Positions 5,476 to 44,700 are shown, counted from the first letter of the stretch. The stretch: 64,000 nucleotides of DNA from Bacillales bacterium UBA6380 (GCA_002438785.1 DJQS01000007.1:6194-70193); one strand, 5' to 3'. Translations and numbers: made by a program. The notes: generated by a model from the sequence alone, not told the origin.

Positions 5476-5477
5476 AT

Positions 5478-17351: not shown

Positions 17352-18581
17352 ATGACCAAACTTATAAATCGTGCTGAATACTTAAAACAACTGATTGAGA
17401 ATAAGGATGTTGATTTAGTAAAAATAATAACTGGTATTCGCAGATGTGGGAAGTCTTCTTTACTAGATTTGCTTCATGAATACCTTTTGCAAAATGGTAC
17501 GCCAGGAGAAAATATTATTCATATGAATCTAGAATCATTACAATATCGGAATATTATTGATTATTTTAGTTTTTATGATTACGTAGCAAAACATATTGCA
17601 AAGAGTGGAAAAACGTATTTGATTTTTGATGAGCTACAGGTAATTGAGCATTGGGAAAAAGCTGTTGAATCATTTCGTTTGGATTTTAATGTGGATATCT
17701 ATATAACAGGCTCTAACGCTTACTTATTATCTTCGGAATTATCGACCTTGCTTTCGGGAAGATATGTGGAGATACGTATGTTGCCATTATCTTTCAAAGA
17801 ATTTTTGAATTTTTATAATTTTGAAGTATCTATCAGTATTGAAGAAAAATTTCAGAAATATCTTCAGTTTGGGGGAATGCCTATTTTAAGAGAATATCAA
17901 TTCAATGAGACGAGAATTAATCAGGCACTTGAAGGCATTTATTCAACTGTTGTTTTAAAAGATATTTTACTCCGCAATCCACAGGCTGATCAGTCAATTT
18001 TAGAAAAGCTTATATTGTTCCTTTGCTCGAATATTGGAAGTATAACTTCGCCAAATAGTATTGGAAATGCCTTATCTCATGAAGGAAATATAATCAAAGG
18101 AAAAGATAAGAATATTGCCAGAAAGACGGTCGATAAATATCTTGATATGCTTCATCAAGCATTCTTTTTCTACTCAGTAAGACGATATGATGTGAAAGGT
18201 AAACAATTTTTGAAAACTTTAGAAAAGAATTATATTATTGATTTAGGATTTCGAAATATGTTATTAGGGTATCGAGATGTGGATAGGGGACATATATTAG
18301 AAAATGTTGTATATTTGGAGCTTATTCGAAGAGGTTACAATGTATATATTGGTAAAATTGGAGAACTTGAGGCTGATTTTATTGCTGAAAAACCAAATGA
18401 AAAACTATATATTCAGGTTACGGAGAGTATGCAATTAATAGAAACACGAGATCGTGAATTAAAACCACTAAGAATCATTAGAGATAATTATGAAAAAATT
18501 ATTCTATCGATGGATAGAAGTTATGTAACTTCTTATGATGGAATTAAGTCATTAAATTTAATTGATTGGCTACTACAATAG
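17352..18581 (+). CDS. AAA+ ATPase (AAA_14 plus DUF4143-type)
   Basis: Walker A GIRRCGKSSLL, Walker B LIFDELQ; 409 aa architecture typical of the widespread DUF4143 ATPase family. Confidence 0.7.
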   Translation: MTKLINRAEYLKQLIENKDVDLVKIITGIRRCGKSSLLDLLHEYLLQNGTPGENIIHMNLESLQYRNIIDYFSFYDYVAKHIAKSGKTYLIFDELQVIEHWEKAVESFRLDFNVDIYITGSNAYLLSSELSTLLSGRYVEIRMLPLSFKEFLNFYNFEVSISIEEKFQKYLQFGGMPILREYQFNETRINQALEGIYSTVVLKDILLRNPQADQSILEKLILFLCSNIGSITSPNSIGNALSHEGNIIKGKDKNIARKTVDKYLDMLHQAFFFYSVRRYDVKGKQFLKTLEKNYIIDLGFRNMLLGYRDVDRGHILENVVYLELIRRGYNVYIGKIGELEADFIAEKPNEKLYIQVTESMQLIETRDRELKPLRIIRDNYEKIILSMDRSYVTSYDGIKSLNLIDWLLQ

Positions 18582-19412: not shown

Positions 19413-21515
19413 TTATTTAAATTTTGAACTTTTAAACAATTGATTTCTATTAATTGAATGATTGGTTTCGTCAAGCCAATATTCTTTACCATTTCTTGAT
19501 CCGATTTGAATAAATCCTGCTGAAGTACTTAAGCCTGTATTACCTTCTATTTTTGAGTAGAAGGTATAGTTTTCTTTAAATATAGCTCCATCATTTGTTT
19601 CTTCTATAATCCCATCTTCTAAAAGCTGATCATAGAGTTCATCGAATGAGTGATTTTCATGAGGTAATCGATAGTTTTCAATATCTGATCCTTTTTGTAC
19701 TTCAACCGCTCCATTATCTAAATAAAATAGAGCTTTTGCTTCAAGGCCTGGATTAGAAAAAAACAAATGTATATGTATAATTTCAAGATCAGAAGAAGAT
19801 ACTGCATAATATGGAAACAATGATATGACTTTATTAGTTAAATTAGCGGTTCTATCATCAATTTCTTTTGTAGTCCAATCTGGTAATTTTAAAATATCTT
19901 CATTTAATTTAAGATGACTAGTAGAAGAAAATAGGTCTACTTTATATTCCCAGATATTATTTTGCGCTTTAGAATTGTCTTTTTTAGAAATAAGTGTAAG
20001 ATTTCCTAATCTATTTCTTTGCATTAAATATTCATCCTCTGTTAAATTTAATTTAGTAAGCCATTTTTTACCATCTTGCGGCATTAAATGTTCCACACTG
20101 AGCTCTTTTAGATCAACAGGCGCAGAATTGTTAATGTTCTCAATTTTTTCTAAAACGATTCGTAATTGAGAACGTAAGATGTACATGTTATCTGTCCATA
20201 AGTGTTCTCTTAATTCCTTATCGTCAGGAACATATGATGATTTTCCTTTATTTGCATTTATCAAATGCTTTCTTAAGGCTATATCAATATTTGAATAATC
20301 GGGCTTACAAGAAGAGAGTGTATCATTTAAAACAGTAGGGAATATTCTTGTAATAGAAGATGTATCTAATGAGCATAATGCTCTTCTTATTAAGTATGAA
20401 TTGACAATTTTTATGAGATTTGCAAAAACATCATCACTTATTAGTAAATTTTGATTCATTTTATAAAATTCAAGAATAAGAGGAGCTGGCATTTCTGAAT
20501 CAATTTTTCTATAATCAATTAATTCATTTTTTATTGGATTTTTGAATTTTGTAATATCTAAATAATAAAGGTCGTTGTATCCTTTAGCATAATCTTTTAT
20601 ATCTGAAAGAATATCTTTAGGTGATAATCCGCTTTTTTGCTCTTTTTCATAGTATTCTTTGAATGTTGAATAAACAGAGTTGATATTACAAAGTCGTTTA
20701 TATTTAATTGATAAATAGATTCTAAAGAAACCTTCTAGTTTTTTGGCATTGCTATTTAAATTTTTTTCTATTTCGTTCCAATAATTTTTGTAATATATTT
20801 CTTGATCATCACTTGGAATAGTCATTAGTATATAATTTCTAATTAAATCTGATGCAGTTAATTTAGCTCCTGTTGAGTTAATACTTTCGAATATTTTTTG
20901 AGCGTTATCGTCTGAAGAAAGTGGAACACACACTAAGTATAGATTGTCCATTGCCATAAGTATTTGATTAAAAGAAAAACCATTTTTATTTAAGTCATTT
21001 ATTCTATCTTTAGTATAAATATAATTTTTGTATATGTTTGAATCAGTATTTTTAATATTATTTAAATCTTTATTGATTATTTGCTGATAAACATCATCAT
21101 CATTAACCAGTGGCTTTAGTTTGAATTTTAGTTTATCTTGTACAAATTGATTATTTAGATATTGATTCTCTAATTGTGAAGCTAAAGTAATATTGCCAGG
21201 GTCTTTTGTTTCATTTAATAAATCTCTTATTGCATACAACATAAGAAAAGTAGTGGTTAATCTTTGCTGACCATCTATTACAGAAAATTCTCTTGAAAAA
21301 GAATCTAATGGTGTATCTAAATAAATCAGAATACCTAAAAAATGTTTATCATACTTATTTTTTAATACTGCACAAAGATCATCAATATACTGTCTCACTT
21401 CTTTATTTGCTGTCCATGTGTAATTTCTTTGATACACTGGAATTACAAATTGACTTCCTACACTATTCCTTAATAATTCTAATAGACCTGTTCGTCTTGG
21501 TGGTTGATTTGTCAT
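19413..21515 (-). CDS. DUF262/DUF1524 (GmrSD-like type IV restriction / anti-phage) protein with extra C-terminal domain
   Basis: 700 aa; DGQQR motif (VIDGQQRLTT) near the N-terminus; His-Me finger motif SVEHLMPQ in the second half; about 130 extra C-terminal residues. Confidence 0.75.
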   Translation of the reverse strand: MTNQPPRRTGLLELLRNSVGSQFVIPVYQRNYTWTANKEVRQYIDDLCAVLKNKYDKHFLGILIYLDTPLDSFSREFSVIDGQQRLTTTFLMLYAIRDLLNETKDPGNITLASQLENQYLNNQFVQDKLKFKLKPLVNDDDVYQQIINKDLNNIKNTDSNIYKNYIYTKDRINDLNKNGFSFNQILMAMDNLYLVCVPLSSDDNAQKIFESINSTGAKLTASDLIRNYILMTIPSDDQEIYYKNYWNEIEKNLNSNAKKLEGFFRIYLSIKYKRLCNINSVYSTFKEYYEKEQKSGLSPKDILSDIKDYAKGYNDLYYLDITKFKNPIKNELIDYRKIDSEMPAPLILEFYKMNQNLLISDDVFANLIKIVNSYLIRRALCSLDTSSITRIFPTVLNDTLSSCKPDYSNIDIALRKHLINANKGKSSYVPDDKELREHLWTDNMYILRSQLRIVLEKIENINNSAPVDLKELSVEHLMPQDGKKWLTKLNLTEDEYLMQRNRLGNLTLISKKDNSKAQNNIWEYKVDLFSSTSHLKLNEDILKLPDWTTKEIDDRTANLTNKVISLFPYYAVSSSDLEIIHIHLFFSNPGLEAKALFYLDNGAVEVQKGSDIENYRLPHENHSFDELYDQLLEDGIIEETNDGAIFKENYTFYSKIEGNTGLSTSAGFIQIGSRNGKEYWLDETNHSINRNQLFKSSKFK

Positions 21516-22083
21516 TTTTACTGTTCCTTATTTATCATTTTGAAATGTAGTCCATAATATTTTAAAATCACAATTTAGGGTCTTGCAAATTTTACATAAA
21601 GCATCAATATTTATATTTTTAAATTTTATGGTTTTTGCCATAGTAGAAGTTCTTATTCCAGAAAGATTAGTTAATTCCTTCTTGTTTTAATTCTTATTAA
21701 TTGCAATATTCATAATCTGTTATAACTATTCATTTTAGTAAACAAACTCTCTCTTTAAATAAGATATACTTTAATTTTTTTATTTATCAATAAACATAAA
21801 GTTTAAGAATACATAAAAAAGCTTTGATTTTAAAATACATTGGTTAGTTTTTATTATTAATCTACATATCTTTCAATAATAGTTGTATTAAACAATTTGT
21901 AAATTAACAAATTGATTAAATTATCTATCTCCAAATATATTATTCTAAGTTAATAGCAGATGTAGTCAAAAAATCCGTATTCTCAATTGTTACAATTTAT
22001 TATGACTTCATCACTAACTCGCTAATTGGTAAAATAAATATTATTATTGATGAAAATATAAAATAATCTTTGACAATATTTAC

Positions 22084-22093
22084 GGGGGGGGGG
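22084..22093. repeat. G10 homopolymer tract in promoter region
   Basis: tacGGGGGGGGGGttaat; 30 bp upstream of the AAAGGAGGAAG RBS of the 22124 gene; extreme outlier in 27% GC DNA. Confidence 0.9.
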
Positions 22094-22123
22094 TTAATAT
22101 TATAAAAAAAGGAGGAAGAAAAA

Positions 22124-22609
22124 ATGTCAAAGAAAAAAGGGGTTGTTTCAAGTTTTGTTCTAACTATTTTATTCTTTTTAGGAGTTTTATCAGTTCTTTT
22201 CTTTAATCAATGTACAGCTGCAGGAATGTTAAATGAAGAAACTGTTACATTATTTGCGCTTATTGGTGCAGTAATTGACGAAGGAGAAGGTGGATTATTA
22301 GTATTAGCTTTTGTAGTTTTATTAATTACTTTTTTAGTTAGGTTCATTTTATTTTTGATTTTAGCTTTAGCTAAATGCAATATAATTAAAAAAGAATCTT
22401 TCGATGAAAAACTAGTTAAAATTTTAAATATTGTAGACACAATTTGCTTTGTCATTGACGATGTTGCTATATTATATATATTCTTCTATTATGTGATAGG
22501 TGGAAATCCGATATTTTCTGTTTATGGCTTGCCAATAGATGCATTTTATTTTGGTATAAGTATGGCTGCTTATTTAATTACAAGGAAAATGGCTAAACAA
22601 ATAGCATAA
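22124..22609 (+). CDS. small polytopic membrane protein (161 aa), function unknown
   Basis: Four or five hydrophobic segments; strong RBS. Confidence 0.45.
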   Translation: MSKKKGVVSSFVLTILFFLGVLSVLFFNQCTAAGMLNEETVTLFALIGAVIDEGEGGLLVLAFVVLLITFLVRFILFLILALAKCNIIKKESFDEKLVKILNIVDTICFVIDDVAILYIFFYYVIGGNPIFSVYGLPIDAFYFGISMAAYLITRKMAKQIA

Positions 22610-22628
22610 TTAAGTTTAATTATTTTAT

Positions 22629-22670
22629 AAAAAGAACTATCAAATATTTTTTAAATTTGATAGTTCTTTT
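22629..22670. terminator. bidirectional rho-independent terminator
   Basis: AAAAAGAACTATCAAA / TTTGATAGTTCTTTT perfect 15-bp stem flanked by A- and T-runs, between convergent genes. Confidence 0.55.
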
Positions 22671-22708
22671 ATTAAGTAGTTAAGATTATCTAAATTTATT
22701 TTAAGATA

Positions 22709-25700
22709 TTACTTATTTACTTTATATTTTTTAATAAAGATTAAAATAATAATTCCTAATATAGAAAGAATCGATATAAGAATACTCATACTAATAATAT
22801 TACCACCACAACCATTTTTATTAGATTCGCTATTAGTATTTTCTTTTTTATAATTTGTCAATTTAAACTTATATTCAACTGATCCATCAACCATATTTAT
22901 TTTAATAATATGTTCATTTGTTTCTAATGTGTTTAAATATTCATTTGTAAAAGTAATTGTTGATTTAGAATAATCTAAAACATATGAATTTTTATCTAAT
23001 TCTTTTTCATCAATGAGAATATTAATTAAATCTTTTAAATCGCCATTAATTGTTAAAACTAAATCATTTTTAGAATTTAAATCGATTTCTGCAGTGTTTC
23101 CCTTAATTTCATATACTTTTTTATAATTACAAGCTATACTTCCGATTGATAAAGAACCACTTGTAACCCCATCTTTAAATCTATAAACTGGACGATTACC
23201 ATTACTAGTATAACTAGCATCACTAATAGCAAACCCTTCATAATTATCTTCTATATTTAATTTAGTTGGAGGAAGAATGTGAGTAATTGTATTTCCTTCT
23301 TTATTAAATTTAATAGTTGCACCGACATTCTTATAACCATTGTCACTCATAACATATAATTCTTTATTATATGTATCAAAATCCATAGCCATAGCTCCAC
23401 CTAATTTAGAATCATATTCATTAATTAAAGTATATGTTCCATCATTATTTAAAACATAGGCATAAACAAATCCATTATCTTCTAAAGCAACAAAGAATAT
23501 TCCATCATTTATTGAATTTTTATAATTATCTATATTAAAGAGTTCGTTAGTATTTTTATCAATTATAGAACCTTCAATATCCTTGTAAGAAACATATTCA
23601 ACCGATTCAATACCCATATTAGCACTAACGCTAGGTAAAGAAGAAGTAATATCCCATTCCTTAGAAGCAACAATTTCATTGCTATCCTTATTTGGATCAA
23701 CCATTAAGATTGTATTATAGTTAACTCCTTTATTTGAATTATCTCTTTCTGAAGCTAAATAAACAAATCCATTGTCATCAACTGTAATTCCTTCAGCATC
23801 AGGACCTTTTGCAGTTAAATTATCCTTATCTTTAATAAATTTGACTTTTTTACCTTTAGAAAATCCTTCTTTAAAGTTCATTGAACCATCTTTATTGACA
23901 TCTAAAATCCAAAAGGTAGCTGTACCATTATCAACTGCATATAATTGATTATTATAAAAATCTAAGCCAGAAGAATCTTCTAAGAATAAACTTTCCTTAT
24001 CAAATATTTCGATTTCGTTACTTCCTGGCCAATTTATTTTTTCAGGAATATCTTTAAATTTATTAGCACTACCAGGAGTTTCAACCATTGTATTTTGATA
24101 GGTATTGCCATTAAAGTCTGGGTATAATCCCCAAGTCGGATTAGTATCTCCTATCCAAGTAGTTTCAGCTAATAATTGAGAATTATTATCATATAATCTA
24201 ACTGAATCATCTTTTCCTAAACCAAAACTTAAATCTGATATCACAAGATAACCATAAGGCTCAATTGTGGTGCCATCTTTAACTTTGTAAATATTATCAT
24301 CTTTATTATCTTTAATTATAAAATTAGAAATATCAATTTTTTCACTAGTAGGATTAGCAAGTTCTACCCAATCGTTTTCGTTTTCTTTAGGATTTGATTG
24401 TATTTCATTTAAAACAACAGGACTTGTAACTTTATTTAATTTTCCTTTACTAGATGTTGGATAGTCAACAAATTCACCTGTGCCATTAGGAATTCGAGCA
24501 TAAACCCCATTAGCATGAGCACCACTCCATGAATAAGAATCAATTAATAGCTCATCTTTATTATATAAATTAGCTTCATCAGATTTTCCAAGCCCAAAAC
24601 TAAAATCTTTATTTTGCTCAAAAACATAAATTTGATTAGGGTTTAACAAAGTATTATCAGCAACTGGCGTTACTTCGTTTTTCCTAGCTAATTTATCACT
24701 ATCATAAATATGCCAACCTGAAATATCAATCGGAGTAGTTCCAATATTTATAATTTCAACATAATCGATGCCACCATTAGGATCATCAGATTCAATTTCA
24801 TTTATTTTTACTTCTGGTTTATACCATTCATTAGCTTTATTTTTTGTTTCTTTAGTTAATGTAAATGAACCTGTTCCGTCAGGATAACGCCCATAACTAG
24901 CTTTAGCTCCATCCCCATCATAACTTGCGTGGCTAGTCCATGAATATTCATCGATTAATTCTTCTTTTTTATTATAAAGTCTTATAGAATCTCCTCCGCC
25001 TAGGCCGATATCATATTTACCTTCAATATATGTCTTAGTTGTATCATCATAAGCTTGACCAATTGTATTATTATCAATTACGTAAAAACTTTTTGAAGCA
25101 AGCTTTGTTCCTTCTTTAATTTTAAAACGATGATCATCACTATTATCTCTAATTTCATAATTTGATAAATCAATCTCACTATCACTATTATTATAAAGTT
25201 CGATCCAATCATCAGGTTGACTATTAACTTCATTAATTACTAATGGTTTACTTGTATCGGTAATTGGCTCTTCCTTAACGATATTTAATTCACCTTTAGT
25301 AGAATCTTGATCAATAAAATCACCTAAGCCATCTGGCACTCTGGAGTAAGTACCACTAGCTTGAGTAGTATATGTATAAGTATCGATTAATTCTTGATTT
25401 TTATTATAAAGATTAGCTGTATCAGCTTTCCCTAAGCCAAAAGAAAAATTAATTCCTCCTTCTAAAACTAATACTTCATTGCTTTTTAAAATCGTTCCTT
25501 CTTTAATTAAAGTTGTTTCATTATTTGTAAGATTTTCTAAACCTTTTTCATCACTAACAAAATAACCACCAATATCAATATCATTAGTTCCTACATTAAT
25601 AATTTCAATCCAATCTTCACCACCATTAGCATCCTTTGATTCGATTTCATTAATTCTTATACTTTCTTTTTTAAGTTCGTTTTGATTTCTTTTAACTATT

Positions 25701-25768
25701 TTATTATTTATTGATATTCCACTAACACTAATTAAAGAACTTAATACTAATAAACTTGCTTTTAACAT
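22709..25768 (-). CDS. surface protein with four lamin-tail-domain (LTD) repeats, phytase-like/beta-propeller region and C-terminal TM anchor
   Basis: Start refined to MLKASLLVLSSLISVSG signal peptide (ATG complement 25766-25768, GGGAG RBS); four repeats of the INE(I/V)xS...DW(I/V)E(L/I)xN...(I/L)D(I/L)S(N/G)(Y/W/F) pattern; C-terminal hydrophobic anchor. Confidence 0.6.
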   Translation of the reverse strand: MLKASLLVLSSLISVSGISINNKIVKRNQNELKKESIRINEIESKDANGGEDWIEIINVGTNDIDIGGYFVSDEKGLENLTNNETTLIKEGTILKSNEVLVLEGGINFSFGLGKADTANLYNKNQELIDTYTYTTQASGTYSRVPDGLGDFIDQDSTKGELNIVKEEPITDTSKPLVINEVNSQPDDWIELYNNSDSEIDLSNYEIRDNSDDHRFKIKEGTKLASKSFYVIDNNTIGQAYDDTTKTYIEGKYDIGLGGGDSIRLYNKKEELIDEYSWTSHASYDGDGAKASYGRYPDGTGSFTLTKETKNKANEWYKPEVKINEIESDDPNGGIDYVEIINIGTTPIDISGWHIYDSDKLARKNEVTPVADNTLLNPNQIYVFEQNKDFSFGLGKSDEANLYNKDELLIDSYSWSGAHANGVYARIPNGTGEFVDYPTSSKGKLNKVTSPVVLNEIQSNPKENENDWVELANPTSEKIDISNFIIKDNKDDNIYKVKDGTTIEPYGYLVISDLSFGLGKDDSVRLYDNNSQLLAETTWIGDTNPTWGLYPDFNGNTYQNTMVETPGSANKFKDIPEKINWPGSNEIEIFDKESLFLEDSSGLDFYNNQLYAVDNGTATFWILDVNKDGSMNFKEGFSKGKKVKFIKDKDNLTAKGPDAEGITVDDNGFVYLASERDNSNKGVNYNTILMVDPNKDSNEIVASKEWDITSSLPSVSANMGIESVEYVSYKDIEGSIIDKNTNELFNIDNYKNSINDGIFFVALEDNGFVYAYVLNNDGTYTLINEYDSKLGGAMAMDFDTYNKELYVMSDNGYKNVGATIKFNKEGNTITHILPPTKLNIEDNYEGFAISDASYTSNGNRPVYRFKDGVTSGSLSIGSIACNYKKVYEIKGNTAEIDLNSKNDLVLTINGDLKDLINILIDEKELDKNSYVLDYSKSTITFTNEYLNTLETNEHIIKINMVDGSVEYKFKLTNYKKENTNSESNKNGCGGNIISMSILISILSILGIIILIFIKKYKVNK

Positions 25769-25907
25769 AAATTTCTCCCTTTTAGAGAATTTTATTAATT
25801 TTTGGAGTGAGTATTCTATCAATAATCTGTAAATTAAATGTAAATAACTTATATAAATATATATTTTATGTAATTAAAATTAATATAAAATAATGTTAGA
25901 GGTTAAT

Positions 25908-26306
25908 ATGAAAAACATAAATGTTGTTGCTGCAATAATTATTAAAAATAATAAAATATTCATTACACAAAGAGGATATGGAGAATTTAAGGATTATTGG
26001 GAGTTTCCGGGTGGCAAAATTGAAAATGGAGAAACTAAAGAAGAAGCCCTTATTAGAGAAATAAAAGAAGAGCTTAATACTAATATTACCGTCAAGAAAT
26101 TATTAACTATAGTCGAGTATGATTATCCTAAGTTTCATTTAACTATGTCATGTTTTATATGTAATTTTGAAGATAATAATTTTAATTTAGTCGAAGCTGA
26201 AGACTATAGATTTATAGATGTTAATGAATTAGATTCGATTAATTTTTTACCAGCTGATATTTTAACTATTAAAAAAATAAAGCAATATTTTAATGAGAAT
26301 CAATAA
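25908..26306 (+). CDS. NUDIX hydrolase (MutT-like)
   Basis: Nudix box GGKIENGETKEEALIREIKEELN; start refined to MKNINVV. Confidence 0.7.
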   Translation: MKNINVVAAIIIKNNKIFITQRGYGEFKDYWEFPGGKIENGETKEEALIREIKEELNTNITVKKLLTIVEYDYPKFHLTMSCFICNFEDNNFNLVEAEDYRFIDVNELDSINFLPADILTIKKIKQYFNENQ

Positions 26307-29271
26307 TTAATGGCTTACTTATTAAGTAATTATATAGTTCATTTTTGACTGGTATTTCTAATTTTAACTTAAATTGTACGACTTTTGTTTTAATTATATT
26401 TCCGTTTTCTTTTTCTATTGGACATCCATCAAGTTTTACCTGTCCTAAATAATAAAATGAATTATCTTTATCTTTACTTTCCCCAAGTTTATTTATAACA
26501 CTATCTCTTTTTATAAATAATAGTACCCTACCATCATTATTAAAAATATTAATTAATGATTTAATTTCTTCGCTTTTTAATGTTCTATTACTTTTTGAGT
26601 CCCATAAAAAGGTATTTGGGTTTAAAAAGATATCTTTATAATTTATTGAAGCGTCATCATCTAAATCTTTATGATAAGTAACAAATATTGGAACAATATT
26701 AAGATTTTTAAATATCTTATACCCATAAATAGTAGATTCTTCATTTTTTGGATTATTTATTAAATAACATACATCCTTACGTGTATATTTTTCATATAAA
26801 ACAAAATTATTGATTGAATTATCGAATTTTTTAAAATAACGATGATGTGAGTACAAAGAATAATTGATGATTTCAAGAAGATATTTCTTAAAGCATTTAT
26901 TATTTAAAGCTAGTAAGAATTCTTTAGTTAATATAATTTCTTTATTATCATTTATTTTACATATTTGAAGTGGCTTTAATTTTGAAGAATTGTTTAATCC
27001 AAAAGAAGTATTTAAAACACTTAAAATACTATTTTTTATTATAGAGTCATAACAATATTTGATCTTTTTAAAAGTACCTAATTTATTTAAGATATCTGCA
27101 AAATCCAATTCTTTTTTATTAAAAATTAACATTTTAATTAATAAAGCTTCATATATTCTTAACCCACTTCCAATGTTTCTCGATAAATAAATTAGAGTGT
27201 CTTTTTCATTAATATTTAAGATTTCTTTTTCATCATTAATTGTAGATAAAAAATTATAATAAGAATCATAACCATTTTGATAAAAATCTAAAAAAGAACG
27301 TCCAGATAAGTTTCCAAGTAAGTCAAATTCGATAAGAGATGGTATCTTGCCTAATCTATTTTTAATATTAATATATTGTTCTTTTATTCTTCTTTTTTCA
27401 GTATTATTTATACTAGCTAAAGATTCAATTATTCGTTTTGTTGATATTTCATCAAATTGAATAATACTTGAACCTGGTAATAGAGGATGAAGATCTTTTT
27501 CACTATGTTTTTGTCCAGAAGTTTTAGTTGCAAATGTTTCTGGAATTAAAAAATTAGATTGATAATTTCCAATAAAATCAATGACAGTTAGATATTCTTT
27601 ATTTATATCTAAACGTAAACCTCTACCAAGTTGTTGAATAAAAATAATAGAAGACTTTGTAGGTCGAAGAAAAATGACTTGATTAATTGAAGGTATATCA
27701 ATACCTTCGTTAAAAATATCACAAGTAATTATCATTTCTAAATATTTTTTATTAAGATCATTTTCTTCTAATAATGATATCGCTTCATTTCTTTTATTAA
27801 GTGAATCTTCTCCTGATAGAAAAATACATTTGATGCCCTTTTGGTTTATTTTTATGGATAACTCCTTGCCTTCTTCTTTATTTGAAACAAATAATAAACA
27901 TTTTAATCGAGGACCAGAATATCCATAGTATCTAGAATTTTGAATGATTTTATTAACTCTTTCATCACATGTTAAATATTTAAAACTAGTTTTATCATCA
28001 ATTGTTATATTATCAATAACTAAATCAGAAACACCAAAATAGTGGAATGGGACGAGCATATTAGCTTCTAAAGCATCATATAATCTTATTTCATATAAGA
28101 TGTTATTATCAAATATTTTATATATATCATATCCATCTAATCTATCTGGAGTTGCTGACATTCCTAAAATATATTTAGGTTTAAAATAATTTAATATATT
28201 TTGATATAAAGTATTTTCGCCAATTCTATGACATTCATCGATAACAATAAAATCAAAAGCAGTTGGATCAAATTGGTTATAATATTTATCTTTACCTAAT
28301 GTCGAAATATTAGAAAATATGAATTGTGCATCATTAAAATCGTGATTATTACCACTTAATAATTTCATTTTTATTTCATTACCAAATACTTTTTTATAAG
28401 ATTCCAAGGATTGTTTTAAAATATTATCTCGATGTGAAATGTATAATAATTTATTTATTTTAAATTTAGTGATGCTTTTAATAGCAAAAGCAGAAGCAAA
28501 TGTTTTTCCGGTTCCAGTAGAAGAGATTAATAAGCCTTTATTATCTCCTTTATTAATTGATTCATTTAATCTATTTATAAAAACCATTTGCATCGAATTA
28601 GGCTTAAATTGTTCATATTGTACTTCATTATTTAAAATATGAGCTTTTATCTTTAAAGAAGATTCGTATTCTTTTTGATATTGATCTAATATTAAAGACA
28701 AAGGAGTCGATAATTTCCAAATTCTATCATATTCATTTAATATATCCTTAATTATTTTTCCATCTTTATTACCAATTATTAGATTATTCCATTCATTATT
28801 TGTTGTTAATGCACTTTGGGTTAAATTGCTACTTCCTATTATTGCTTTATATTCATTATTTTTAAATTTAAAGATATATCCTTTTGTGTGGAATCCAATA
28901 TTATTTGATGAATTTATATAAAAAAGTCTAACATCAATATTTGAATATTGCTGAAGTTCTTTTAAGGCTTTTGGTTCTGTAAAGCATAGATAATTACTTG
29001 TTATGACAGTTCCATGAACCTGTGGATTTCTATTTTGTAATTCTTTAAATATTTCTTTTAATAAACTAAGACCAGAGTCTGTAATAAAGGCAATTGAAAA
29101 ATGAAATTCTTCACATGTTAATAAATTTTCTTTTAAAGAATAAAATACTTTTTTGATATTATCTTTTTCATTAACGTTGTAAATAAATTCGGGTATGAAA
29201 TTAGATTCGACTACCGAATTGTTGTTTAGATATGCATTTATTAAATTATTTAATATCTCGTTATTTTCCAT
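26290..29271 (-). CDS. PLD-family (HKD) nuclease plus SF2 DEAH-box helicase with long C-terminal domain (possibly DUF3427-like)
   Basis: 993 aa; HTKGYIF...IGSSNLT (HxK ... GSxN) near res 128-150; Walker A LLISSTGTGKT; DExH FIVIDECHRIG; helicase-C motifs (FIQQLGRGLR); about 390 aa C-terminal region without recognisable motif. Confidence 0.75.
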   Translation of the reverse strand: MENNEILNNLINAYLNNNSVVESNFIPEFIYNVNEKDNIKKVFYSLKENLLTCEEFHFSIAFITDSGLSLLKEIFKELQNRNPQVHGTVITSNYLCFTEPKALKELQQYSNIDVRLFYINSSNNIGFHTKGYIFKFKNNEYKAIIGSSNLTQSALTTNNEWNNLIIGNKDGKIIKDILNEYDRIWKLSTPLSLILDQYQKEYESSLKIKAHILNNEVQYEQFKPNSMQMVFINRLNESINKGDNKGLLISSTGTGKTFASAFAIKSITKFKINKLLYISHRDNILKQSLESYKKVFGNEIKMKLLSGNNHDFNDAQFIFSNISTLGKDKYYNQFDPTAFDFIVIDECHRIGENTLYQNILNYFKPKYILGMSATPDRLDGYDIYKIFDNNILYEIRLYDALEANMLVPFHYFGVSDLVIDNITIDDKTSFKYLTCDERVNKIIQNSRYYGYSGPRLKCLLFVSNKEEGKELSIKINQKGIKCIFLSGEDSLNKRNEAISLLEENDLNKKYLEMIITCDIFNEGIDIPSINQVIFLRPTKSSIIFIQQLGRGLRLDINKEYLTVIDFIGNYQSNFLIPETFATKTSGQKHSEKDLHPLLPGSSIIQFDEISTKRIIESLASINNTEKRRIKEQYINIKNRLGKIPSLIEFDLLGNLSGRSFLDFYQNGYDSYYNFLSTINDEKEILNINEKDTLIYLSRNIGSGLRIYEALLIKMLIFNKKELDFADILNKLGTFKKIKYCYDSIIKNSILSVLNTSFGLNNSSKLKPLQICKINDNKEIILTKEFLLALNNKCFKKYLLEIINYSLYSHHRYFKKFDNSINNFVLYEKYTRKDVCYLINNPKNEESTIYGYKIFKNLNIVPIFVTYHKDLDDDASINYKDIFLNPNTFLWDSKSNRTLKSEEIKSLINIFNNDGRVLLFIKRDSVINKLGESKDKDNSFYYLGQVKLDGCPIEKENGNIIKTKVVQFKLKLEIPVKNELYNYLISKPLIIDSH

Positions 29272-29425
29272 AATAAAAGCTTAAATTAATTGACTAAAAA
29301 TTACAATAAATTTAGAATGTTAAAAAATGATTTTTATTAATAAAAATAGGTTTTATAACTTATAAAGCGGCAATAAAATTCTTTAATTTTCTTAAGTTTT
29401 ATTAACAAAACTTAGCAGAAATCAA

Positions 29426-30247
29426 CTATTTTTCTAAAATTTTATCTAAAAAATTAATAGATGATTTAACCCAAGTTTGGACATCATCAAAACAATCTTT
29501 TTTATCATTAACAAGTTCAGTATCAATGGATAATCCATGATGACCATGTTGAAAAATAATTGTTTCGTGGTTAACATTGGCTTTATTTAAGGCCTCATTC
29601 ATTAATTTGGTATTAATAATTGGAACACAATCATCTGTTTCAGTCGACCAAATAAAAGTAGGAGGGTAATCATTATCAATGTGATTTTGAATAGAAAGTT
29701 TATTAATTAATTTAATAGAACCTTCAGTAATATTATTTTTAGTATCTTGATGTGTATCATTTAAAAGTGTAATAACAGGATAAGATAAAATAATAGCTTT
29801 AGGTTTTAGGTGTTTTGTATCTAAAATATTTAATAATTTGCCTAATTCATCATAAAGATAACAATAACTAGCAACTAAATGGCCGCCAGCACTACAACCA
29901 ATCATGGTTATTTTATTAATATCGATTTGATATGCTTTATAATTATTATATATATAATCCATTGCAGCGCATAATTCTAAATGAGGAATAGGATATTTAA
30001 CAGTTGAATAATGATCTTTAGTTGAGTAAGTTAATTTACAGGTTACATAATCATTTAATAAAAATGGTAACGCAATTGGATCACCTTCTCGTAATGAATT
30101 CATATTATAAGCTCCGCCAGGAACTATAATTATTGTCTTTTTCTCTCTATAAGAGTCATCATCCCATGTTTTAATAGTAGTAATTTCTAAAATTGGGTCA
30201 TTTTTTAAATTATAAAATTGGTTTAAATGTATTCTTGTTGTATTCAT
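29426..30247 (-). CDS. alpha/beta hydrolase (esterase/lipase fold-3)
   Basis: GCSAGG (GxSxG) nucleophile elbow, HGHHG region; 273 aa. Confidence 0.6.
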   Translation of the reverse strand: MNTTRIHLNQFYNLKNDPILEITTIKTWDDDSYREKKTIIIVPGGAYNMNSLREGDPIALPFLLNDYVTCKLTYSTKDHYSTVKYPIPHLELCAAMDYIYNNYKAYQIDINKITMIGCSAGGHLVASYCYLYDELGKLLNILDTKHLKPKAIILSYPVITLLNDTHQDTKNNITEGSIKLINKLSIQNHIDNDYPPTFIWSTETDDCVPIINTKLMNEALNKANVNHETIIFQHGHHGLSIDTELVNDKKDCFDDVQTWVKSSINFLDKILEK

Positions 30248-39923: not shown

Positions 39924-41150
39924 ATGAAATATTTTTGTTATTCATTTGGTCTTATTGTTTTAGTTTTGGCTATAATTTTTCTTTTATTGGCTATTTTCTC
40001 TTATAATTCTAAGAATAAGAGTAAAAATGACTTACTAGGAAGCATAATTAAATGTGTAGTACCTCTACTTGGATTGATATTTATTTTTACATGCTTTACA
40101 AAACTTTTTGATTATAAATATTTATTAAGTGGATTAATTGTTTTTATAATTTATGTGATTTTAGTTTTCTTAATTAAGATTTTAATCTTAACATCTATCT
40201 CAAGATATAGTTTTATTAAATTAATTGAAAGAATTGGATCTGATATTAAAGATTCATTTAAAGAAAAAACAAATGTTTTTTCTAAGATAGGAGATGTTTT
40301 ATTATTTTTAATTTCTCCTGACTTTGTAATAACTAGATTAAGTGAAGATGCACATATTATAAATTATAGTGATGAATATAATAATAAATATATTAGAGTT
40401 AGTTTAAAAAAGTCATATAGTTTATTAAATTTAGTTATCAGTATTATTTTATGCATAATTTGCTATTTTACATTTTATTTTAATAAGAGTAATGCAATTT
40501 ATTTAGGTCTTAAAGCTTTAATCATTTATCATATAATTTCTAGAAGTGTTGAAGAATTATCAAATTTATTTAATGATCTTATTAATAAAGACATTGAATA
40601 TAGATTGAATTTTAAAGAAAAGATTATTATAAGTAGCATAAAAATTATCGAATTTGCTATTTTAATGGTTGGAGCTTATTTAAGTTATAAATATATTGCT
40701 AAAGATGCTTTAGCTGGTGGAATGTCTACCTTATTAGGCAATTTAACAAACAAACATAATTATTATGGATTAACTGCCTTATCTACAATGAGTTTTACTG
40801 GTTGTATTGCTATCTTAATTAATTTATTTATTTCTAATTTTCAAAATAATGAATGCTATGTTGATAAAAATAGTCCTAAGTTAATGGTTATTAATAAAAA
40901 TAACGATAGGATTGAAGATATGTTTTCTTTAATGGATCATCATGATGGTATTGCTAGTATTGTTTTAAATCCTTCTAGAGATCAGTCTTATGTTATTTAT
41001 TATGATAACAAATATTATGGATATAGAAACGTTATTAGTAAGAATTTAGTTAATAATGAAAGTTGCGTTAATGATAATTTCTCAATTAATGAATCGATTG
41101 AATTAACTATTTCATTTAATAAGGAAAATAAAGAAATTACTATTAAATAA
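39924..41150 (+). CDS. polytopic membrane protein (408 aa), function unknown
   Basis: Multiple TM segments; Asn/Ile-rich soluble C-terminal part. Confidence 0.4.
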   Translation: MKYFCYSFGLIVLVLAIIFLLLAIFSYNSKNKSKNDLLGSIIKCVVPLLGLIFIFTCFTKLFDYKYLLSGLIVFIIYVILVFLIKILILTSISRYSFIKLIERIGSDIKDSFKEKTNVFSKIGDVLLFLISPDFVITRLSEDAHIINYSDEYNNKYIRVSLKKSYSLLNLVISIILCIICYFTFYFNKSNAIYLGLKALIIYHIISRSVEELSNLFNDLINKDIEYRLNFKEKIIISSIKIIEFAILMVGAYLSYKYIAKDALAGGMSTLLGNLTNKHNYYGLTALSTMSFTGCIAILINLFISNFQNNECYVDKNSPKLMVINKNNDRIEDMFSLMDHHDGIASIVLNPSRDQSYVIYYDNKYYGYRNVISKNLVNNESCVNDNFSINESIELTISFNKENKEITIK

Positions 41151-41167
41151 AATAATTAAACTATTAA

Positions 41168-41197
41168 AACTGCTTATTAATTTAAGCAGTTTTTTTA
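41168..41197 (+). terminator. rho-independent terminator
   Basis: AACTGCTTA-ttaatt-TAAGCAGTT followed by TTTTTTT. Confidence 0.5.
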
Positions 41198-41253
41198 TGT
41201 CAATAAAAGGATAAAATTAGTGACATTTAAAAACTCAATGTTATAATGTAAAT

Positions 41254-41730
41254 ATGTTCTTAGAAAAGTTTTTTTATTCATTTATTATGAGTTTACCAGT
41301 TGTTATTACAACAATTGGTATTTTGATTTTTTTATTTATTAAATTTAAAAAGACTAGAACTTTAATTTTAGGAATAACATTATTTTATTTTTCCTTATTT
41401 TTTATATATTTAATTTATTCGTATAACTGTAATATTTTTAATATAACTTTTATTAAAAAAATAAAAGCAATACTAAAAATTACTCTTAATATAGTTACAT
41501 TATTTAATGAATATCTTTTATATTTTTTAAATAATGGTTTTGTTTATATATTAATTAGTTTTGTATTTAGTATAACTTTTGTTTTTGCTATTAAAATTAT
41601 TATTATTCTTAATTTAATTGATAAAAAGCCTTCTAAAGTTAAACTATTTATTAAAAAAATTTCATTTTTAATTTTTAATAAAGAAGAATTTAATATATTT
41701 AAAAACCCTTTTTATAATCTTAGATGTTAG
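41254..41730 (+). CDS. small membrane protein (158 aa), function unknown
   Basis: Three or four hydrophobic segments; very AT-rich. Confidence 0.35.
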   Translation: MFLEKFFYSFIMSLPVVITTIGILIFLFIKFKKTRTLILGITLFYFSLFFIYLIYSYNCNIFNITFIKKIKAILKITLNIVTLFNEYLLYFLNNGFVYILISFVFSITFVFAIKIIIILNLIDKKPSKVKLFIKKISFLIFNKEEFNIFKNPFYNLRC

Positions 41731-41778
41731 AGATATTTTATATTTTTAATTTTTAATTTTATAAAATAGGAGTGAATT

Positions 41779-44700
41779 ATGAATAAAAAAATAGTTTTTT
41801 TAACCTTTTGTAGTGTAGCTTGCTTATTTAGCTGTACTAATAAAAAAGACGTAAACGAAGATATTAAAAATATTTATAAAGATATAAGTAACGGAAATAA
41901 ATTAAAGGCGTTTATTATTAAAGATAATAATTATTATATTTTTGAAAATTCAACAGACATTATTTCCTTAGGAAGATTTGATGAATCAACATATAGTTTT
42001 GATAATTCAAATGATTTTGGTTTTATTCTTCCTAGTAGTGGAGTGATTAATTATGATGATTTAAGCATAAGTAATATTTCTAAATTAATTGTCAATTATA
42101 AAAGTAAAGAGATTTATTCTTTTATTGATTATAATACTAAAGCTCTATCTAAAATATATAATAGTAATAATTTCGATAATTTATATTTTTATAATGATTT
42201 TAATAATGAAAAATTTAGTAATGGATATGAAGTAAATCTAAAAATTGATAATTATAATAAAATTAGTTGTGAAGATATAAGGGAGTATTATTTAAATAGT
42301 TTTAACAAATATAATGATTTAAAAGAAATAGATTCCTTATATAAAAATATCAGCATCAGCGATGAGTTTAATGGTAAAAAAGTTGTTTCTATTGGTAACT
42401 TATCTAATACTTTAAAATCTTTAAAAATAGATAACATTAATTTTACATTTTCAAATAACATTGAAAATGTAAGTGAAGATGCTTTTAATGGACTAAAATT
42501 TAATAATGATTTAAATCTGAGTAACAATCTTATAAATATCGAAGATAACGCGTTTAAAAATAGTCAGATAAATAAATTACTTGTTCATGATAAAAAGATT
42601 AATTATAAAGATTCAAGCTTTTTAAATTTAAAATTAAATGAAATTAATTTTGATCATGAGGATTCAAATAATTTAAATTTAATAGATGATTTTATCTCTG
42701 ATAATTATGATTTAAAAGTAACAATTAATAATTTATATTATGATAAATTTACAAAGATAAAGGAAATATATAAAAAAGCTACAAATAACGAAATAAATAC
42801 TAAAGCATACTTAGTTAAAAATAATCATTATTATGTGTTTGATGGAATTGATAAAATTACTCAATTGGGTATTTTTGATTTAGACAAAAATGAATTTAGT
42901 AATAGTAATGAATTTGGTTTTATTCTTCCTAGCAGTGGAACAATTAATTATGATTCAAGTAATGTTTTAGAGTGCTCAAAATTATTAGTTAATTTAAATA
43001 ATAAAAATATTTATTCTTATATTAATTTAGACGGTGAGATTTCTAACGATTATAATGGTAATAATTTTGATAATCTATATTTTTATGGTGATTCAAGTAA
43101 TAATGACATTAGTAATGGATATGAAGTTAGTTTAAAAATTGATAATTATTTAAAAATTAGTAACGAAGAAGTTCGTAATTATTATTTGAATAATTTCCTA
43201 TCATATAATGATTTAAAAGATCAAAAAGACATAAAAAAGTTATATGAAAAGATTATATTAAAAAATGATTTTAATAATAAAAATGTTGTAGCTATTGGTA
43301 ATTTTTCTAAAGTATTAAAAGAACTCGGATTAACTAGTATTAATTTAAATTTAAGTGAAAATATTGAGTATATTAAAGAAGATGCATTTAATGGAATTAG
43401 CTTTAATAATGAAGTTTTGACATTAAATAAAAAACTTAAAAATATTGATATAAGGGCATTTGCTTATTCGAATATTTATACTCTATATGTTTACGATAAT
43501 GAAATTGAATTTTATTATGAAACATATAATAAATTCACTCATAAATTTAGACCATTTGAGGATGATAGTTTTTATGAAGCAAATGTTAAAAATATTCATT
43601 TTGAAACATATAATTCAGGCAATAGTTTATTATCTAATTATTTAGCTGGCAATAATAGTGAATTAATTATTAAATGTGGAAAAAATCTAAATTCTAAATA
43701 TTATGACTCAATAAGTGAGGGCTTAAACATAGAAAAAACAATTAATCCACTTTGTGACTTAAAAGATATTTCAAATAATGTAATTGGAGATAATAATTTA
43801 ACACTAGTAGATACTAATGAAAGCTTAATTTTATCTATTAAAAATAAACTTGATGATGGAAATCTTTATAATGGATCTAATGTTAGAGAATACGGAACTT
43901 TAGATGCTAAAACTGCTAATTCTATACCTAATATGTTAAGTAGCGACTTTGTTAATAAATATACTAAAAATGTTTATACATTAAAATTAAAAAACGATCT
44001 AACAATTAAAGGAAAAGTTTATGTTGGAGCTACTATTAATAGCGAAGCTCAAAGAAATCAAGGATATATTACAGGTGACTATGTTACTCTCGATTTAAAT
44101 GGGCATAATGTTTATATCGAAGATGGTGGAGTATTAGAAAGTAGTGGCTATATTATTGATAGTAGTGCAAATCAAAGTGGTATGATTGAAATCAAAAATG
44201 GTGGCACATTATCGACAAATTTTAATGTAGAAGATTATAGTGGTGGTCAAATTACAAAGAATAGATATGACAAAAATGTTAGTCCTTTCAATTTATTTAA
44301 ATTAGGATATTTGCAAGTTAATACTAAAATAAATAAAGGTGGTAAGCTTAATGGACTTTGCGTTTTGTACGCTTCATATTCTCAAAATGAAGCAATTCAA
44401 ACTATCATTGGAGAAGACGGCTTATTTGATATTAGTTCTAATGATGGATATATCATTAAAAGAGCAAAATTCATTAATAATGAATATGATGGAATTGATC
44501 ATTATGAAATATATGGTGATTGCAAAACTAATTCAATGACTTTAAGAGTTGGAGCTATTGCTTTAAGTACATCAAAATTATTTTTACCATTAACTAGATT
44601 TCAAACAATCGATATCTATAAAGGTAAATTTACCATGAACACAAAATTAAAAGTGCTTCCAGGAACAGAAGTTAATGTTTATAATGGCGCTACTTTAGTT

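What the first reader, a model, noticed from the sequence alone, without database searches (positions are those of the whole stretch)
25908..29271. Standalone 993-aa PLD-nuclease / SF2-helicase / unknown C-terminal domain protein, convergent with a NUDIX hydrolase: candidate anti-phage module
The minus-strand ORF 26290-29271 fuses an N-terminal HKD/PLD-like nuclease (HTKGYIF ... IGSSNLT, about nt 28890-28820) to a DEAH-box SF2 helicase. The helicase carries GTGKT at about nt 28540, DECH at about 28250 and FIQQLGRGLR at about 27600. A roughly 390-aa C-terminal region (about nt 27470-26290) has no motif I recognise. The PLDc_2 + ResIII + Helicase_C + DUF3427 combination is, as far as I recall, a recurrent uncharacterised architecture in defense islands. 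It differs from Mokosh (SF1 Upf1-like helicase), Hachiman and Hna. A nuclease-helicase fusion is the logic of many abortive-infection or restriction-like systems. The gene sits in an accessory stretch next to an LTD surface protein, IS debris and a GmrSD-like gene, and its 3' end overlaps a convergent NUDIX hydrolase gene by 17 nt. NUDIX enzymes occasionally partner with immunity systems through nucleotide-signal or NAD-derivative hydrolysis. Whether the pair is functionally linked is open.
Basis: partly seen in the sequence, partly recalled or inferred. Interest (0 to 1): 0.7.

Follow-up and report, generated by a model that had tools for sequence, protein, structure and literature searches.

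The report
SauUSI-type restriction enzyme with NUDIX partner
The 993-aa protein is not an uncharacterised defence fusion but a clear relative of SauUSI, the well-studied enzyme that shreds incoming DNA carrying methylated cytosine. Its small NUDIX neighbour is a conserved partner whose role is still untested; it may destroy methylated-cytosine nucleotides.

Summary
A 993-aa minus-strand ORF (26290-29271) carries PLD/HKD nuclease, SF2 helicase and DUF3427 domains. It overlaps a convergent NUDIX gene (25908/25893-26306) by 17 nt.

The claim that the architecture is uncharacterised is wrong. The protein aligns end to end with SauUSI of Staphylococcus aureus (PDB 7CLG, E 2.6e-179, 39% identity). 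It also matches PADLOC's Type IV restriction model (E 4e-186). All four mutationally proven nuclease residues, the helicase motifs and the modelled 5-methylcytosine pocket are conserved.

The NUDIX link is real and was already noted in 2011 without an explanation. Its best PDB match, 5X1X, is the S. aureus NUDIX encoded 1 nt upstream of sauUSI. In 80 genome loci with homologues, 50 have an adjacent NUDIX. Among homologues with a SauUSI-type Tyr+Asp pocket the figure is 36 of 38 evaluable loci. Three gene arrangements occur, across bacteria and archaea.

A family relative, B. fragilis Q5LBB1 (PDB 3GWY), hydrolyses 5-methyl- and 5-hydroxymethyl-dCTP, the two marks SauUSI reads. I therefore infer that the partner clears modified dCTP from the nucleotide pool. 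This is untested.

Verdict: a new member of a known kind, of modest interest. The partner's function is the open question.

The parts
26290..29271 (-). SauUSI-family Type IV (5mC/5hmC-dependent, ATP-dependent) restriction endonuclease gene, 993 aa
   Evidence: Full-length match to PDB 7CLG SauUSI (E 2.6e-179) with 39% identity over 999 aligned positions. PADLOC mREase_IV PDLC03658 matches at E 4e-186, profile positions 12-952 of 953.
28672..29271 (-). PLD/HKD nuclease domain (aa 1-200), corresponding to SauUSI residues 1-191
   Evidence: H128, K130, N149 and E160 align with SauUSI H119, K121, N139 and E150. Each of those was shown essential by Ala substitution. All four are invariant in 19 homologues and present in every locus ORF that includes this domain.
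27403..28608 (-). SF2 DExH helicase-like translocase ATPase (aa 222-623), corresponding to SauUSI 221-617
   Evidence: ResIII and Helicase_C hits. Motif I GTGKT at 253-257, motif II DECH at 345-348, SAT at 372-374 and motif VI QQLGRGLR at 546-553.
26797..27402 (-). Coupler region (aa 624-825), corresponding to SauUSI 618-805; Pfam DUF8090 plus the first part of DUF3427
   Evidence: Collinear alignment with SauUSI. PF26350 DUF8090 is precomputed for the 99%-identical protein. Domain limits are taken from PMC7913695.
26293..26796 (-). SRA-like target recognition domain (aa 826-993), corresponding to SauUSI 806-953
   Evidence: Pocket residues Y851, F863, V864, D880 and W890 correspond to SauUSI Y831, F841, I842, D858 and W868. 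The wedge residue M829 is Y849 here.
25908..26306 (+). Conserved NUDIX partner gene (132 aa; 137 aa if started at 25893), convergent with the restriction gene and overlapping it by 17 nt
   Evidence: NUDIX domain at E 2.2e-17. The best PDB hit, 5X1X, is the S. aureus NUDIX encoded 1 nt upstream of sauUSI. A NUDIX gene is adjacent in 50 of 80 homologue loci. The convergent overlap is kept in relatives at 60-99% identity whose flanks differ.

Best explanation
The locus is a two-gene SauUSI-type Type IV restriction module in an uncultured low-GC Bacillota (Firmicutes) genome.

The enzyme, by homology to SauUSI: it should act as a dimer joined through its PLD nuclease domains. The C-terminal SRA-like domain flips out 5-methylcytosine or 5-hydroxymethylcytosine in incoming DNA. 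Recognition switches on the SF2 ATPase. The enzyme then translocates along the duplex and cuts away from the site. Repeated cycles shred the modified DNA. No methyltransferase is needed, because the host's own DNA lacks the mark.

The NUDIX partner, by inference: it is a nucleotide-pool enzyme that hydrolyses 5-methyl- and 5-hydroxymethyl-(d)CTP to the monophosphate. This would keep the mark out of host DNA, which would otherwise become a substrate for its own enzyme. It could also starve phages that build such DNA.

What is shown here: the homology, the conserved residues and the gene linkage. What is inferred: activity of this particular enzyme, its sequence context, and the NUDIX substrate.
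For: Enzyme:
- Full-length hits to SauUSI and to the PADLOC Type IV model.
- Catalytic, helicase and pocket residues are conserved.
- The SauUSI mechanism comes from PMC3141236, PMC7913695 and bioRxiv 10.1101/2025.10.16.682607.
- No C5-methyltransferase motif IV occurs anywhere in the 64-kb window.

Linkage:
- A NUDIX gene is adjacent in 50 of 80 genome loci: 23 upstream co-directional, 18 downstream co-directional, 9 convergent. These span Bacillota, Bacteroidota, Proteobacteria, Actinobacteria and Archaea.
- Of 80 metagenome loci picked by the NUDIX, 31 have a SauUSI-like neighbour.
- The pair is kept while its flanks change.
- The window genes' best PDB hits, 7CLG and 5X1X, are the two S. 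aureus pair members.

NUDIX substrate:
- Q5LBB1 (3GWY) hydrolyses 5-Me-dCTP, 5-hydroxymethyl-dCTP and 5-Me-CTP at about 5e6 M-1 s-1, with low activity on canonical NTPs.
- 3GWY and 5X1X are 44% identical to each other but only 24-28% identical to the MutT-type structures 7SYC and 4V14.
- Linked NUDIX proteins reach 54% identity to 3GWY.
- The position of MutT Asn119 is Asp in 78 of 82 linked proteins, in 3GWY and in 5X1X. It is Asn in the MutT-type structures.
- NUDIX adjacency tracks the SauUSI-type Tyr+Asp pocket: 36 present and 2 absent, against 12 present and 22 absent for other pockets (Fisher p = 5e-8, uncorrected for phylogeny).
Against: - No activity data exist for this protein. Identity to SauUSI is 39%, so the sequence context and the 5mC/5hmC preference could differ.
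- Deleting the NUDIX gene in S. aureus Newman gave a viable strain that still restricted DNA (data not shown in PMC3312211). The partner is therefore neither required for cleavage nor an essential antidote in the laboratory.
- The characterised 3GWY gene and its close relatives are not next to a SauUSI-like gene.
- 27 of the close NUDIX homologues with full flanks are unlinked.
- The window NUDIX is about equally distant from all references: 36-39% to 5X1X, 3GWY, 3HHJ and 7SYC.
- It scores just above NCBIfam's MutT cutoff (100 bits against 97.9).
- PADLOC's PDC-S07 profile also scores MutT-type proteins, so that hit is not specific.
- The pocket-NUDIX correlation is confounded by shared ancestry.
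Confidence: 0.85

Rival explanations
1. The enzyme is SauUSI-type, but the NUDIX is an ordinary MutT-like housekeeping sanitiser (8-oxo-dGTP or general dNTP). It is often found beside the restriction gene without any functional coupling.
For: TIGR00586 MutT scores 100 bits against a cutoff of 97.9. The S. aureus nudix deletion still restricts DNA. Many close homologues are standalone. The window NUDIX is no closer to 3GWY than to 7SYC by BLAST.
Against: Adjacency in 36 of 38 loci with the SauUSI-type pocket, in three independent gene arrangements across phyla and archaea, is far above chance for a family present about once per genome. The pair persists while its flanks change. The 8-oxoG-reading Asn119 of MutT is replaced by Asp (the role of Asn119 is from my own knowledge of MutT structures).
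Confidence: 0.25
2. The NUDIX is a second arm of defence rather than self-protection. It depletes phage-made 5-hydroxymethyl- or 5-methyl-dCTP during infection, so phages with fully substituted cytosine cannot replicate. SauUSI meanwhile cuts whatever modified DNA enters.
For: Q5LBB1 is equally active on 5-Me-dCTP and 5-hm-dCTP. Even unlinked NUDIX homologues often sit beside defence candidates: PDC-S41, PDC-S05, PDC-S13 and SoFic. PADLOC lists the family as candidate PDC-S07.
Against: No phage data exist. Lowering the modification level of phage DNA would reduce SauUSI targeting, so the two activities could work against each other. This reading is not exclusive of the self-protection reading.
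Confidence: 0.2
3. The large protein is a housekeeping DNA-repair or recombination helicase-nuclease rather than a restriction enzyme.
For: There are weak partial hits to RadD, UvrB and Hef helicase cores. Within this species the gene looks common: 16 members in the 90% cluster, against 14-27 for housekeeping genes.
Against: Those hits cover only the SF2 core and fall far below their cutoffs. The full-length match is to SauUSI, which is experimentally a restriction enzyme. Split, probably inactive, alleles occur in some strains, as expected for a dispensable restriction gene.
Confidence: 0.02
4. The NUDIX removes pyrophosphate or other products of SauUSI's ATP/dATP hydrolysis. This was the suggestion made in 2011.
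For: Proposed in PMC3141236.
Against: SF2 ATPases release ADP and phosphate, not pyrophosphate (established enzymology). NUDIX enzymes hydrolyse nucleoside diphosphate-X compounds, not free pyrophosphate. The partner is not needed for restriction.
Confidence: 0.03

Closest known systems
SauUSI (Staphylococcus aureus USA300, SAUSA300_2431; PDB 7CLG)
   Same: Same domain order over the whole length: PLD nuclease, SF2 DExH ATPase, coupler, SRA-like DUF3427 domain. Identity is 39%. The catalytic H/K/N/E residues, the helicase motifs and the 5mC pocket residues (Tyr, Phe, Asp, Trp) are conserved. No methyltransferase is nearby, and a NUDIX gene is adjacent.
   Different: It is 40 aa longer. The wedge residue Met829 is Tyr849 and Ile842 is Val864. 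The NUDIX gene is convergent and overlaps the 3' end, rather than lying 1 nt upstream in the same direction. The host is an uncultured gut Bacillota. The recognition context (S5mCNGS in SauUSI) is unknown here.
S. aureus NUDIX SAUSA300_2432 (PDB 5X1X, deposited as 'Mutator mutT protein')
   Same: It is the best PDB match of the window NUDIX (E 3.5e-23, 38% identity). It has the same size and the same Asp at the MutT-Asn119 position, and it is a partner of a SauUSI-type gene.
   Different: Gene order and orientation differ. I found no published substrate for 5X1X in the held library.
Bacteroides fragilis Q5LBB1 (PDB 3GWY), a 5-substituted (d)CTP pyrophosphatase, and E. coli NudG/Orf135
   Same: Same small MutT-like NUDIX fold family. 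3GWY is 36% identical to the window protein and 44% identical to 5X1X. Its substrates, 5-Me-dCTP and 5-hm-dCTP, carry exactly the marks SauUSI reads.
   Different: Q5LBB1's own gene is standalone, beside a DprA-like gene. The substrate of the window protein is not measured.
Other Type IV enzymes (McrBC, Mrr, GmrSD, MspJI, and DUF3427-HNH / PD-(D/E)XK fusions)
   Same: Modification-dependent restriction without a cognate methylase. A GmrSD-like gene lies 5 kb away in the same block.
   Different: These use different nucleases and motors (GTPase in McrBC, no motor in MspJI). Only the DUF3427 reader is shared with the fusions described in PMC6765204.

Membership tests
SauUSI family (Type IV ATP-dependent modification-dependent REase) | N-terminal PLD/HKD nuclease with catalytic His-x-Lys plus Asn and Glu (SauUSI H119, K121, N139, E150) | tested here: met
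   H128, K130, N149 and E160 align with these residues and are invariant among homologues.
SauUSI family (Type IV ATP-dependent modification-dependent REase) | Central SF2 DExH helicase-like ATPase with motifs I, II, III and VI | tested here: met
   GTGKT, DECH, SAT and QQLGRGLR are present, with ResIII and Helicase_C hits.
SauUSI family (Type IV ATP-dependent modification-dependent REase) | Coupler plus C-terminal DUF3427/SRA-like reader with the modelled 5mC pocket (Y831, F841, I842, D858, W868) | tested here: met
   DUF3427 at E 1.3e-62. Y851, F863, V864, D880 and W890 are conserved. This is a sequence-level test; the fold was not modelled.
SauUSI family (Type IV ATP-dependent modification-dependent REase) | Collinear full-length homology to SauUSI | tested here: met
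   Query 10-984 against chain 12-952, E 2.6e-179. 39% identity. PADLOC PDLC03658 at E 4e-186.
SauUSI family (Type IV ATP-dependent modification-dependent REase) | No cognate DNA methyltransferase | tested here: met
   No methyltransferase among the neighbours scanned. No C5-MTase motif IV in any frame of the 64-kb window. The rest of the genome was not available.
SauUSI family (Type IV ATP-dependent modification-dependent REase) | ATP-dependent cleavage of 5mC/5hmC DNA but not unmodified DNA; dimer through the nuclease domains | not testable with these tools
   Requires biochemistry. Known only for SauUSI itself.
SauUSI family (Type IV ATP-dependent modification-dependent REase) | Linked MutT/NUDIX gene (a frequent but not universal trait) | tested here: met
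   The adjacent NUDIX overlaps by 17 nt. 50 of 80 homologue loci have one. Reported for at least 60 homologues in PMC3141236.
5-substituted (d)CTP pyrophosphatases (Q5LBB1/3GWY, NudG-like NUDIX) | Intact NUDIX box catalytic residues | tested here: met
   G41-x5-E47-x7-R55-E56-I57-x-E59-E60 is read directly. E44, E47, R55, E56, E59 and E60 are invariant in A2. The last box Gly is Asn62, as is usual in this subgroup.
5-substituted (d)CTP pyrophosphatases (Q5LBB1/3GWY, NudG-like NUDIX) | Closer to the characterised 5-Me-dCTPase than to 8-oxo-dGTPase MutT | tested here: inconclusive
   Window protein: 36% to 3GWY, 39% to 5X1X, 38% to 7SYC. For the linked family as a whole the answer is yes: up to 54% to 3GWY against 26-38% to MutT types.
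5-substituted (d)CTP pyrophosphatases (Q5LBB1/3GWY, NudG-like NUDIX) | Kinetic preference for 5-Me-dCTP and 5-hm-dCTP | not testable with these tools
   Measured only for Q5LBB1.
MutT 8-oxo-dGTP diphosphatase | Score above the TIGR00586 equivalog cutoff | tested here: met
   100 bits against a cutoff of 97.9, which is marginal.
MutT 8-oxo-dGTP diphosphatase | Asn at the E. coli MutT Asn119 position, which reads 8-oxoguanine (own knowledge of MutT structures) | tested here: not met
   The window protein has Asp122. Asp also occurs in 78 of 82 linked homologues. Asn occurs in the MutT-type structures 7SYC and 4V14.

The most novel reading that the evidence does not exclude
The NUDIX partner is a dedicated pool guard for modification-dependent restriction. 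It destroys 5-methyl- and 5-hydroxymethyl-(d)CTP, which could arise from shredded foreign DNA, from turnover of m5C-containing RNA, or from phage synthesis. This stops the host from writing the very mark its Type IV enzyme attacks. Type IV systems are thought to need no self-protection gene, so this would give them an immunity-like component. It would work at the nucleotide level instead of by DNA methylation. I found no paper in the held library that makes this connection.
Probability: 0.4. Interest if true: 0.6.

Novelty: new member of a known kind. Interest (0 to 1): 0.35.

Why it matters
The enzyme itself adds only another SauUSI homologue from an uncultured gut bacterium. It is useful to know as a likely barrier to introducing Dcm-methylated DNA into such organisms.

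The more useful outcome is a sharper, testable hypothesis for an observation left open since 2011, namely why SauUSI-type genes carry a NUDIX neighbour. Three separate facts now line up:
- The linkage is strong and follows the cytosine-reading pocket.
- A solved structure labelled 'MutT' (5X1X) is the S. aureus partner.
- A family relative specifically hydrolyses 5-methyl- and 5-hydroxymethyl-dCTP.

If confirmed, Type IV restriction would have a nucleotide-pool safeguard. Defence-annotation tools could then call the pair as one system.

Tried and rejected
- PADLOC PDC-S07 as evidence that the NUDIX is defence-specific. Rejected because MutT-type structures score almost as well: 134 bits against 165 for the window protein.
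- A direct link through the characterised enzyme. The 3GWY gene and its relatives at 86% and 65% identity are not next to SauUSI-like genes.
- A recurrent alternative partner in the 27 unlinked NUDIX loci. None was found by all-against-all BLAST. Several neighbours are, however, defence candidates.
- Domain fusions of the NUDIX as a clue to function. I found class-I methyltransferase, MBL-fold and weak CdiA_C fusions, none decisive. All are stop-to-stop ORFs not checked for frameshifts.
- Promoter and terminator scan of 25600-29700. It was uninformative in this AT-rich DNA: fewer promoter-like sites than in shuffles, and no terminators.
- Rfam scan of the window. No hits.
- Literature on 5X1X and on S. 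aureus locus tags. Nothing relevant was found.
- Not done: structure prediction and fold search. A 39%-identical crystal structure covering the full length made them unnecessary.
- Not done: organism identification beyond the labels 'uncultured Firmicutes/Clostridiales/Mollicutes bacterium'. The best genome relative of the enzyme is Candidatus Enterosoma at 53%.
Full report
**Observation**

The minus-strand ORF at 26290-29271 encodes 993 aa. Pfam finds PLDc_2 (aa 98-185), ResIII (222-377), Helicase_C (456-554) and DUF3427 (695-983, E 1.3e-62).

A 137-aa NUDIX ORF runs 25893-26306 on the plus strand. It is convergent with the large gene, and their 3' ends overlap by 17 nt. A GAGGT element 4 nt before the second ATG favours a start at 25908. 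This gives 132 aa, which is how public assemblies call the gene.

**What the large protein is**

It is not an uncharacterised architecture.
- PADLOC's Type IV model PDLC03658 matches end to end (E 4e-186, profile positions 12-952 of 953).
- The PDB search gives chain 7CLG_A over residues 10-984 (E 2.6e-179).
- 7CLG is the crystal structure of SauUSI (PMC7913695).
- Pairwise identity to the S. aureus SauUSI sequence is 39% over 999 aligned positions.

SauUSI cleaves DNA containing 5mC and 5hmC, requires ATP or dATP, and has no companion methylase. Its residues H119, K121, N139 and E150 are each essential (PMC3141236). The window protein has H128, K130, N149 and E160 at these positions. They are invariant in an alignment of 19 homologues and present in every homologue ORF that covers the domain. 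Helicase motifs I, II, III and VI are present.

The modelled 5mC pocket of SauUSI is Y831, F841, I842, D858 and W868, with wedge residue M829. The window protein has Y851, F863, V864, D880, W890 and Y849.

The expected mechanism is therefore the one shown for SauUSI:
- flipping of the modified cytosine by the reader domain;
- activation of the ATPase;
- directional or loop translocation;
- cleavage away from the site, and shredding by repeated cycles.

For this protein, all of this is inference from homology.

**Context**

The window is co-oriented on the plus strand except for a block at 19.4-30.2 kb. That block holds a GmrSD-like gene, an LTD-repeat protein, the SauUSI-like gene and an esterase, and its GC is 0.23-0.25. 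No C5-methyltransferase motif IV occurs in any frame of the window.

The organism is an uncultured MAG labelled Firmicutes, Clostridiales or Mollicutes bacterium. The 90%-identity cluster of the enzyme has 16 members. It includes split versions (509+481 aa and 768+108 aa), which are probably inactive alleles. The family is large: 4127 hits at E <= 1e-10 among the candidates scored.

**The NUDIX neighbour is a conserved partner**

Xu et al. (2011) already wrote that a MutT/NUDIX gene (SAUSA300_2432) is linked to sauUSI and to at least 60 homologues. They presented this as 'data not shown' and said the function 'remains to be examined'.

Forward test:
- A scan of one genome per species with an alignment of homologues gave 80 loci.
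- In 50 of them, a homologue of the window NUDIX lies directly beside the SauUSI-like gene.
- The arrangements are 23 upstream co-directional, 18 downstream co-directional (often overlapping by a few bases) and 9 convergent.
- The hosts include Bacillota, Bacteroidota, Proteobacteria, Actinobacteria and the archaea Methanobrevibacter, Methanococcoides, Methanosarcinaceae and Bathyarchaeota.

Reverse test:
- 80 metagenome loci were chosen by the NUDIX alone.
- 31 have a SauUSI-like neighbour, 27 with full flanks do not, and 22 are truncated.

Close relatives of the window enzyme at 99%, 61% and 60% identity keep the convergent 3'-overlapping pair while their flanking genes differ.

The best PDB match of the window NUDIX is 5X1X, deposited as 'Mutator mutT protein'. 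It is 99% identical to an S. aureus protein encoded 1 nt upstream of the 953-aa SauUSI gene. So both window genes have the two members of the S. aureus pair as their best structural relatives.

**What the partner may do**

A screen of NUDIX enzymes showed that B. fragilis Q5LBB1 (PDB 3GWY) hydrolyses three substrates with kcat/Km of 4-7e6 M-1 s-1: 5-Me-dCTP, 5-hydroxymethyl-dCTP and 5-Me-CTP. Its activity on 5-OH-dCTP is 50-fold lower, and it has low activity on canonical NTPs (PMC5158307). The 5-methyl and 5-hydroxymethyl substituents are the two marks SauUSI recognises.

Supporting comparisons:
- 3GWY and 5X1X are 44% identical to each other. Each is only 24-28% identical to the MutT-type structures 7SYC and 4V14.
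- SauUSI-linked NUDIX proteins are up to 54% identical to 3GWY or 65% to 5X1X, against 26-38% to the MutT types.
- At the column of E. coli MutT Asn119, 78 of 82 linked proteins carry Asp, as do 3GWY and 5X1X. The MutT-type structures carry Asn. Asn119 reads 8-oxoguanine, from my own knowledge of MutT structures.
With SauUSI-type Tyr+Asp it is present in 36 and absent in 2 evaluable loci. With other pocket states it is present in 12 and absent in 22. With Asp replaced by Asn or His it is present in 1 and absent in 6. Fisher p = 5e-8, not corrected for shared ancestry.

I infer that the partner removes 5-substituted (d)CTP from the nucleotide pool. That would protect host DNA from acquiring the mark, and possibly starve phages that synthesise such nucleotides.

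**Caveats**

- The NUDIX substrate is an inference only.
- Deletion of the S. aureus NUDIX gene did not abolish restriction and was viable (data not shown in PMC3312211).
- The 3GWY gene itself and its close relatives are standalone.
- The window NUDIX is about equally distant from all reference structures.
- It marginally passes NCBIfam's MutT cutoff.
- PADLOC's PDC-S07 profile is not specific.
- Searches of the held library found no paper connecting a 5-Me-dCTP NUDIX with Type IV restriction. Subscription literature is not covered.

**Verdict**

The claim of novelty is wrong. The locus is a new member of the SauUSI family together with its known, but functionally unexplained, NUDIX partner. 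Interest is modest and rests on the now testable hypothesis for the partner.

Noticed in passing
window 19413-21515 (-): An intact 700-aa GmrSD-like Type IV enzyme with an extra C-terminal DUF4357 (weak hit, below Pfam's cutoff) lies in the same minus-strand block. In the 99%-identical strain L168 it is split into 202-aa and 470-aa ORFs.
   Followed up: partly
window 17352-18581 (+); L170 1521-2819; L171 37-1335: An AAA_14/DUF4143 ATPase (PADLOC candidate PDC-S01, E 2e-151) lies 8 kb from the SauUSI-like gene. The same family lies directly upstream of the SauUSI-like gene in relatives at 61% identity.
   Followed up: no
window 19413-30247: This is the only block of long (>=120 aa) minus-strand ORFs, apart from a few nested or terminal ones, in an otherwise plus-strand window. 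Its GC is 0.23-0.25, against 0.30-0.34 to the left. This is consistent with an accessory insertion beside the pst operon. In L169 the pair also lies next to a pst-phoU-phoBR operon.
   Followed up: partly
L030, L031, L042, L047, L059, L062, L073: In these SauUSI-like homologues the pocket Asp (SauUSI D858) is Asn or His, and they mostly lack the NUDIX neighbour. Hosts are Cetobacterium, Companilactobacillus, Campylobacterales/Arcobacter and Gemella. They may read a different modified base.
   Followed up: partly
L113 687-2804, L152 1815-3800, L007 upstream of 5334-5981: A Schlafen-group-3/DUF2075 helicase protein (PADLOC candidate PDC-S41, E 6e-249) lies immediately upstream of the NUDIX in two loci that lack SauUSI. 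In one archaeal locus that has SauUSI, the stop-to-stop ORF holding the NUDIX also carries the C-terminal end of such a helicase. It may be a second recurrent NUDIX partner.
   Followed up: partly
L127 4989-6008, L114 677-1711, L072 3977-5173, L100 4182-5390: The NUDIX domain appears fused to a class-I SAM methyltransferase domain in two loci and to an MBL-fold domain in two others. These are stop-to-stop ORFs and were not checked for frameshifts.
   Followed up: no
L081 854-1828, L083 4875-5807: The characterised 5-Me-dCTPase gene type (3GWY, Bacteroides) sits divergently beside a DprA-like gene (a weak DNA_processg_A hit). It is not beside a restriction gene.
   Followed up: no
window 22124-22609 (+): This 161-aa ORF between the GmrSD-like and LTD genes has no hit in Pfam, PADLOC or NCBIfam. 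It is conserved in L168. I found no IS remnant there.
   Followed up: partly
window 40000-43000: GC is very low here (0.18-0.19), inside or near a 1108-aa ORF at 41779-45105. I did not examine it.
   Followed up: no
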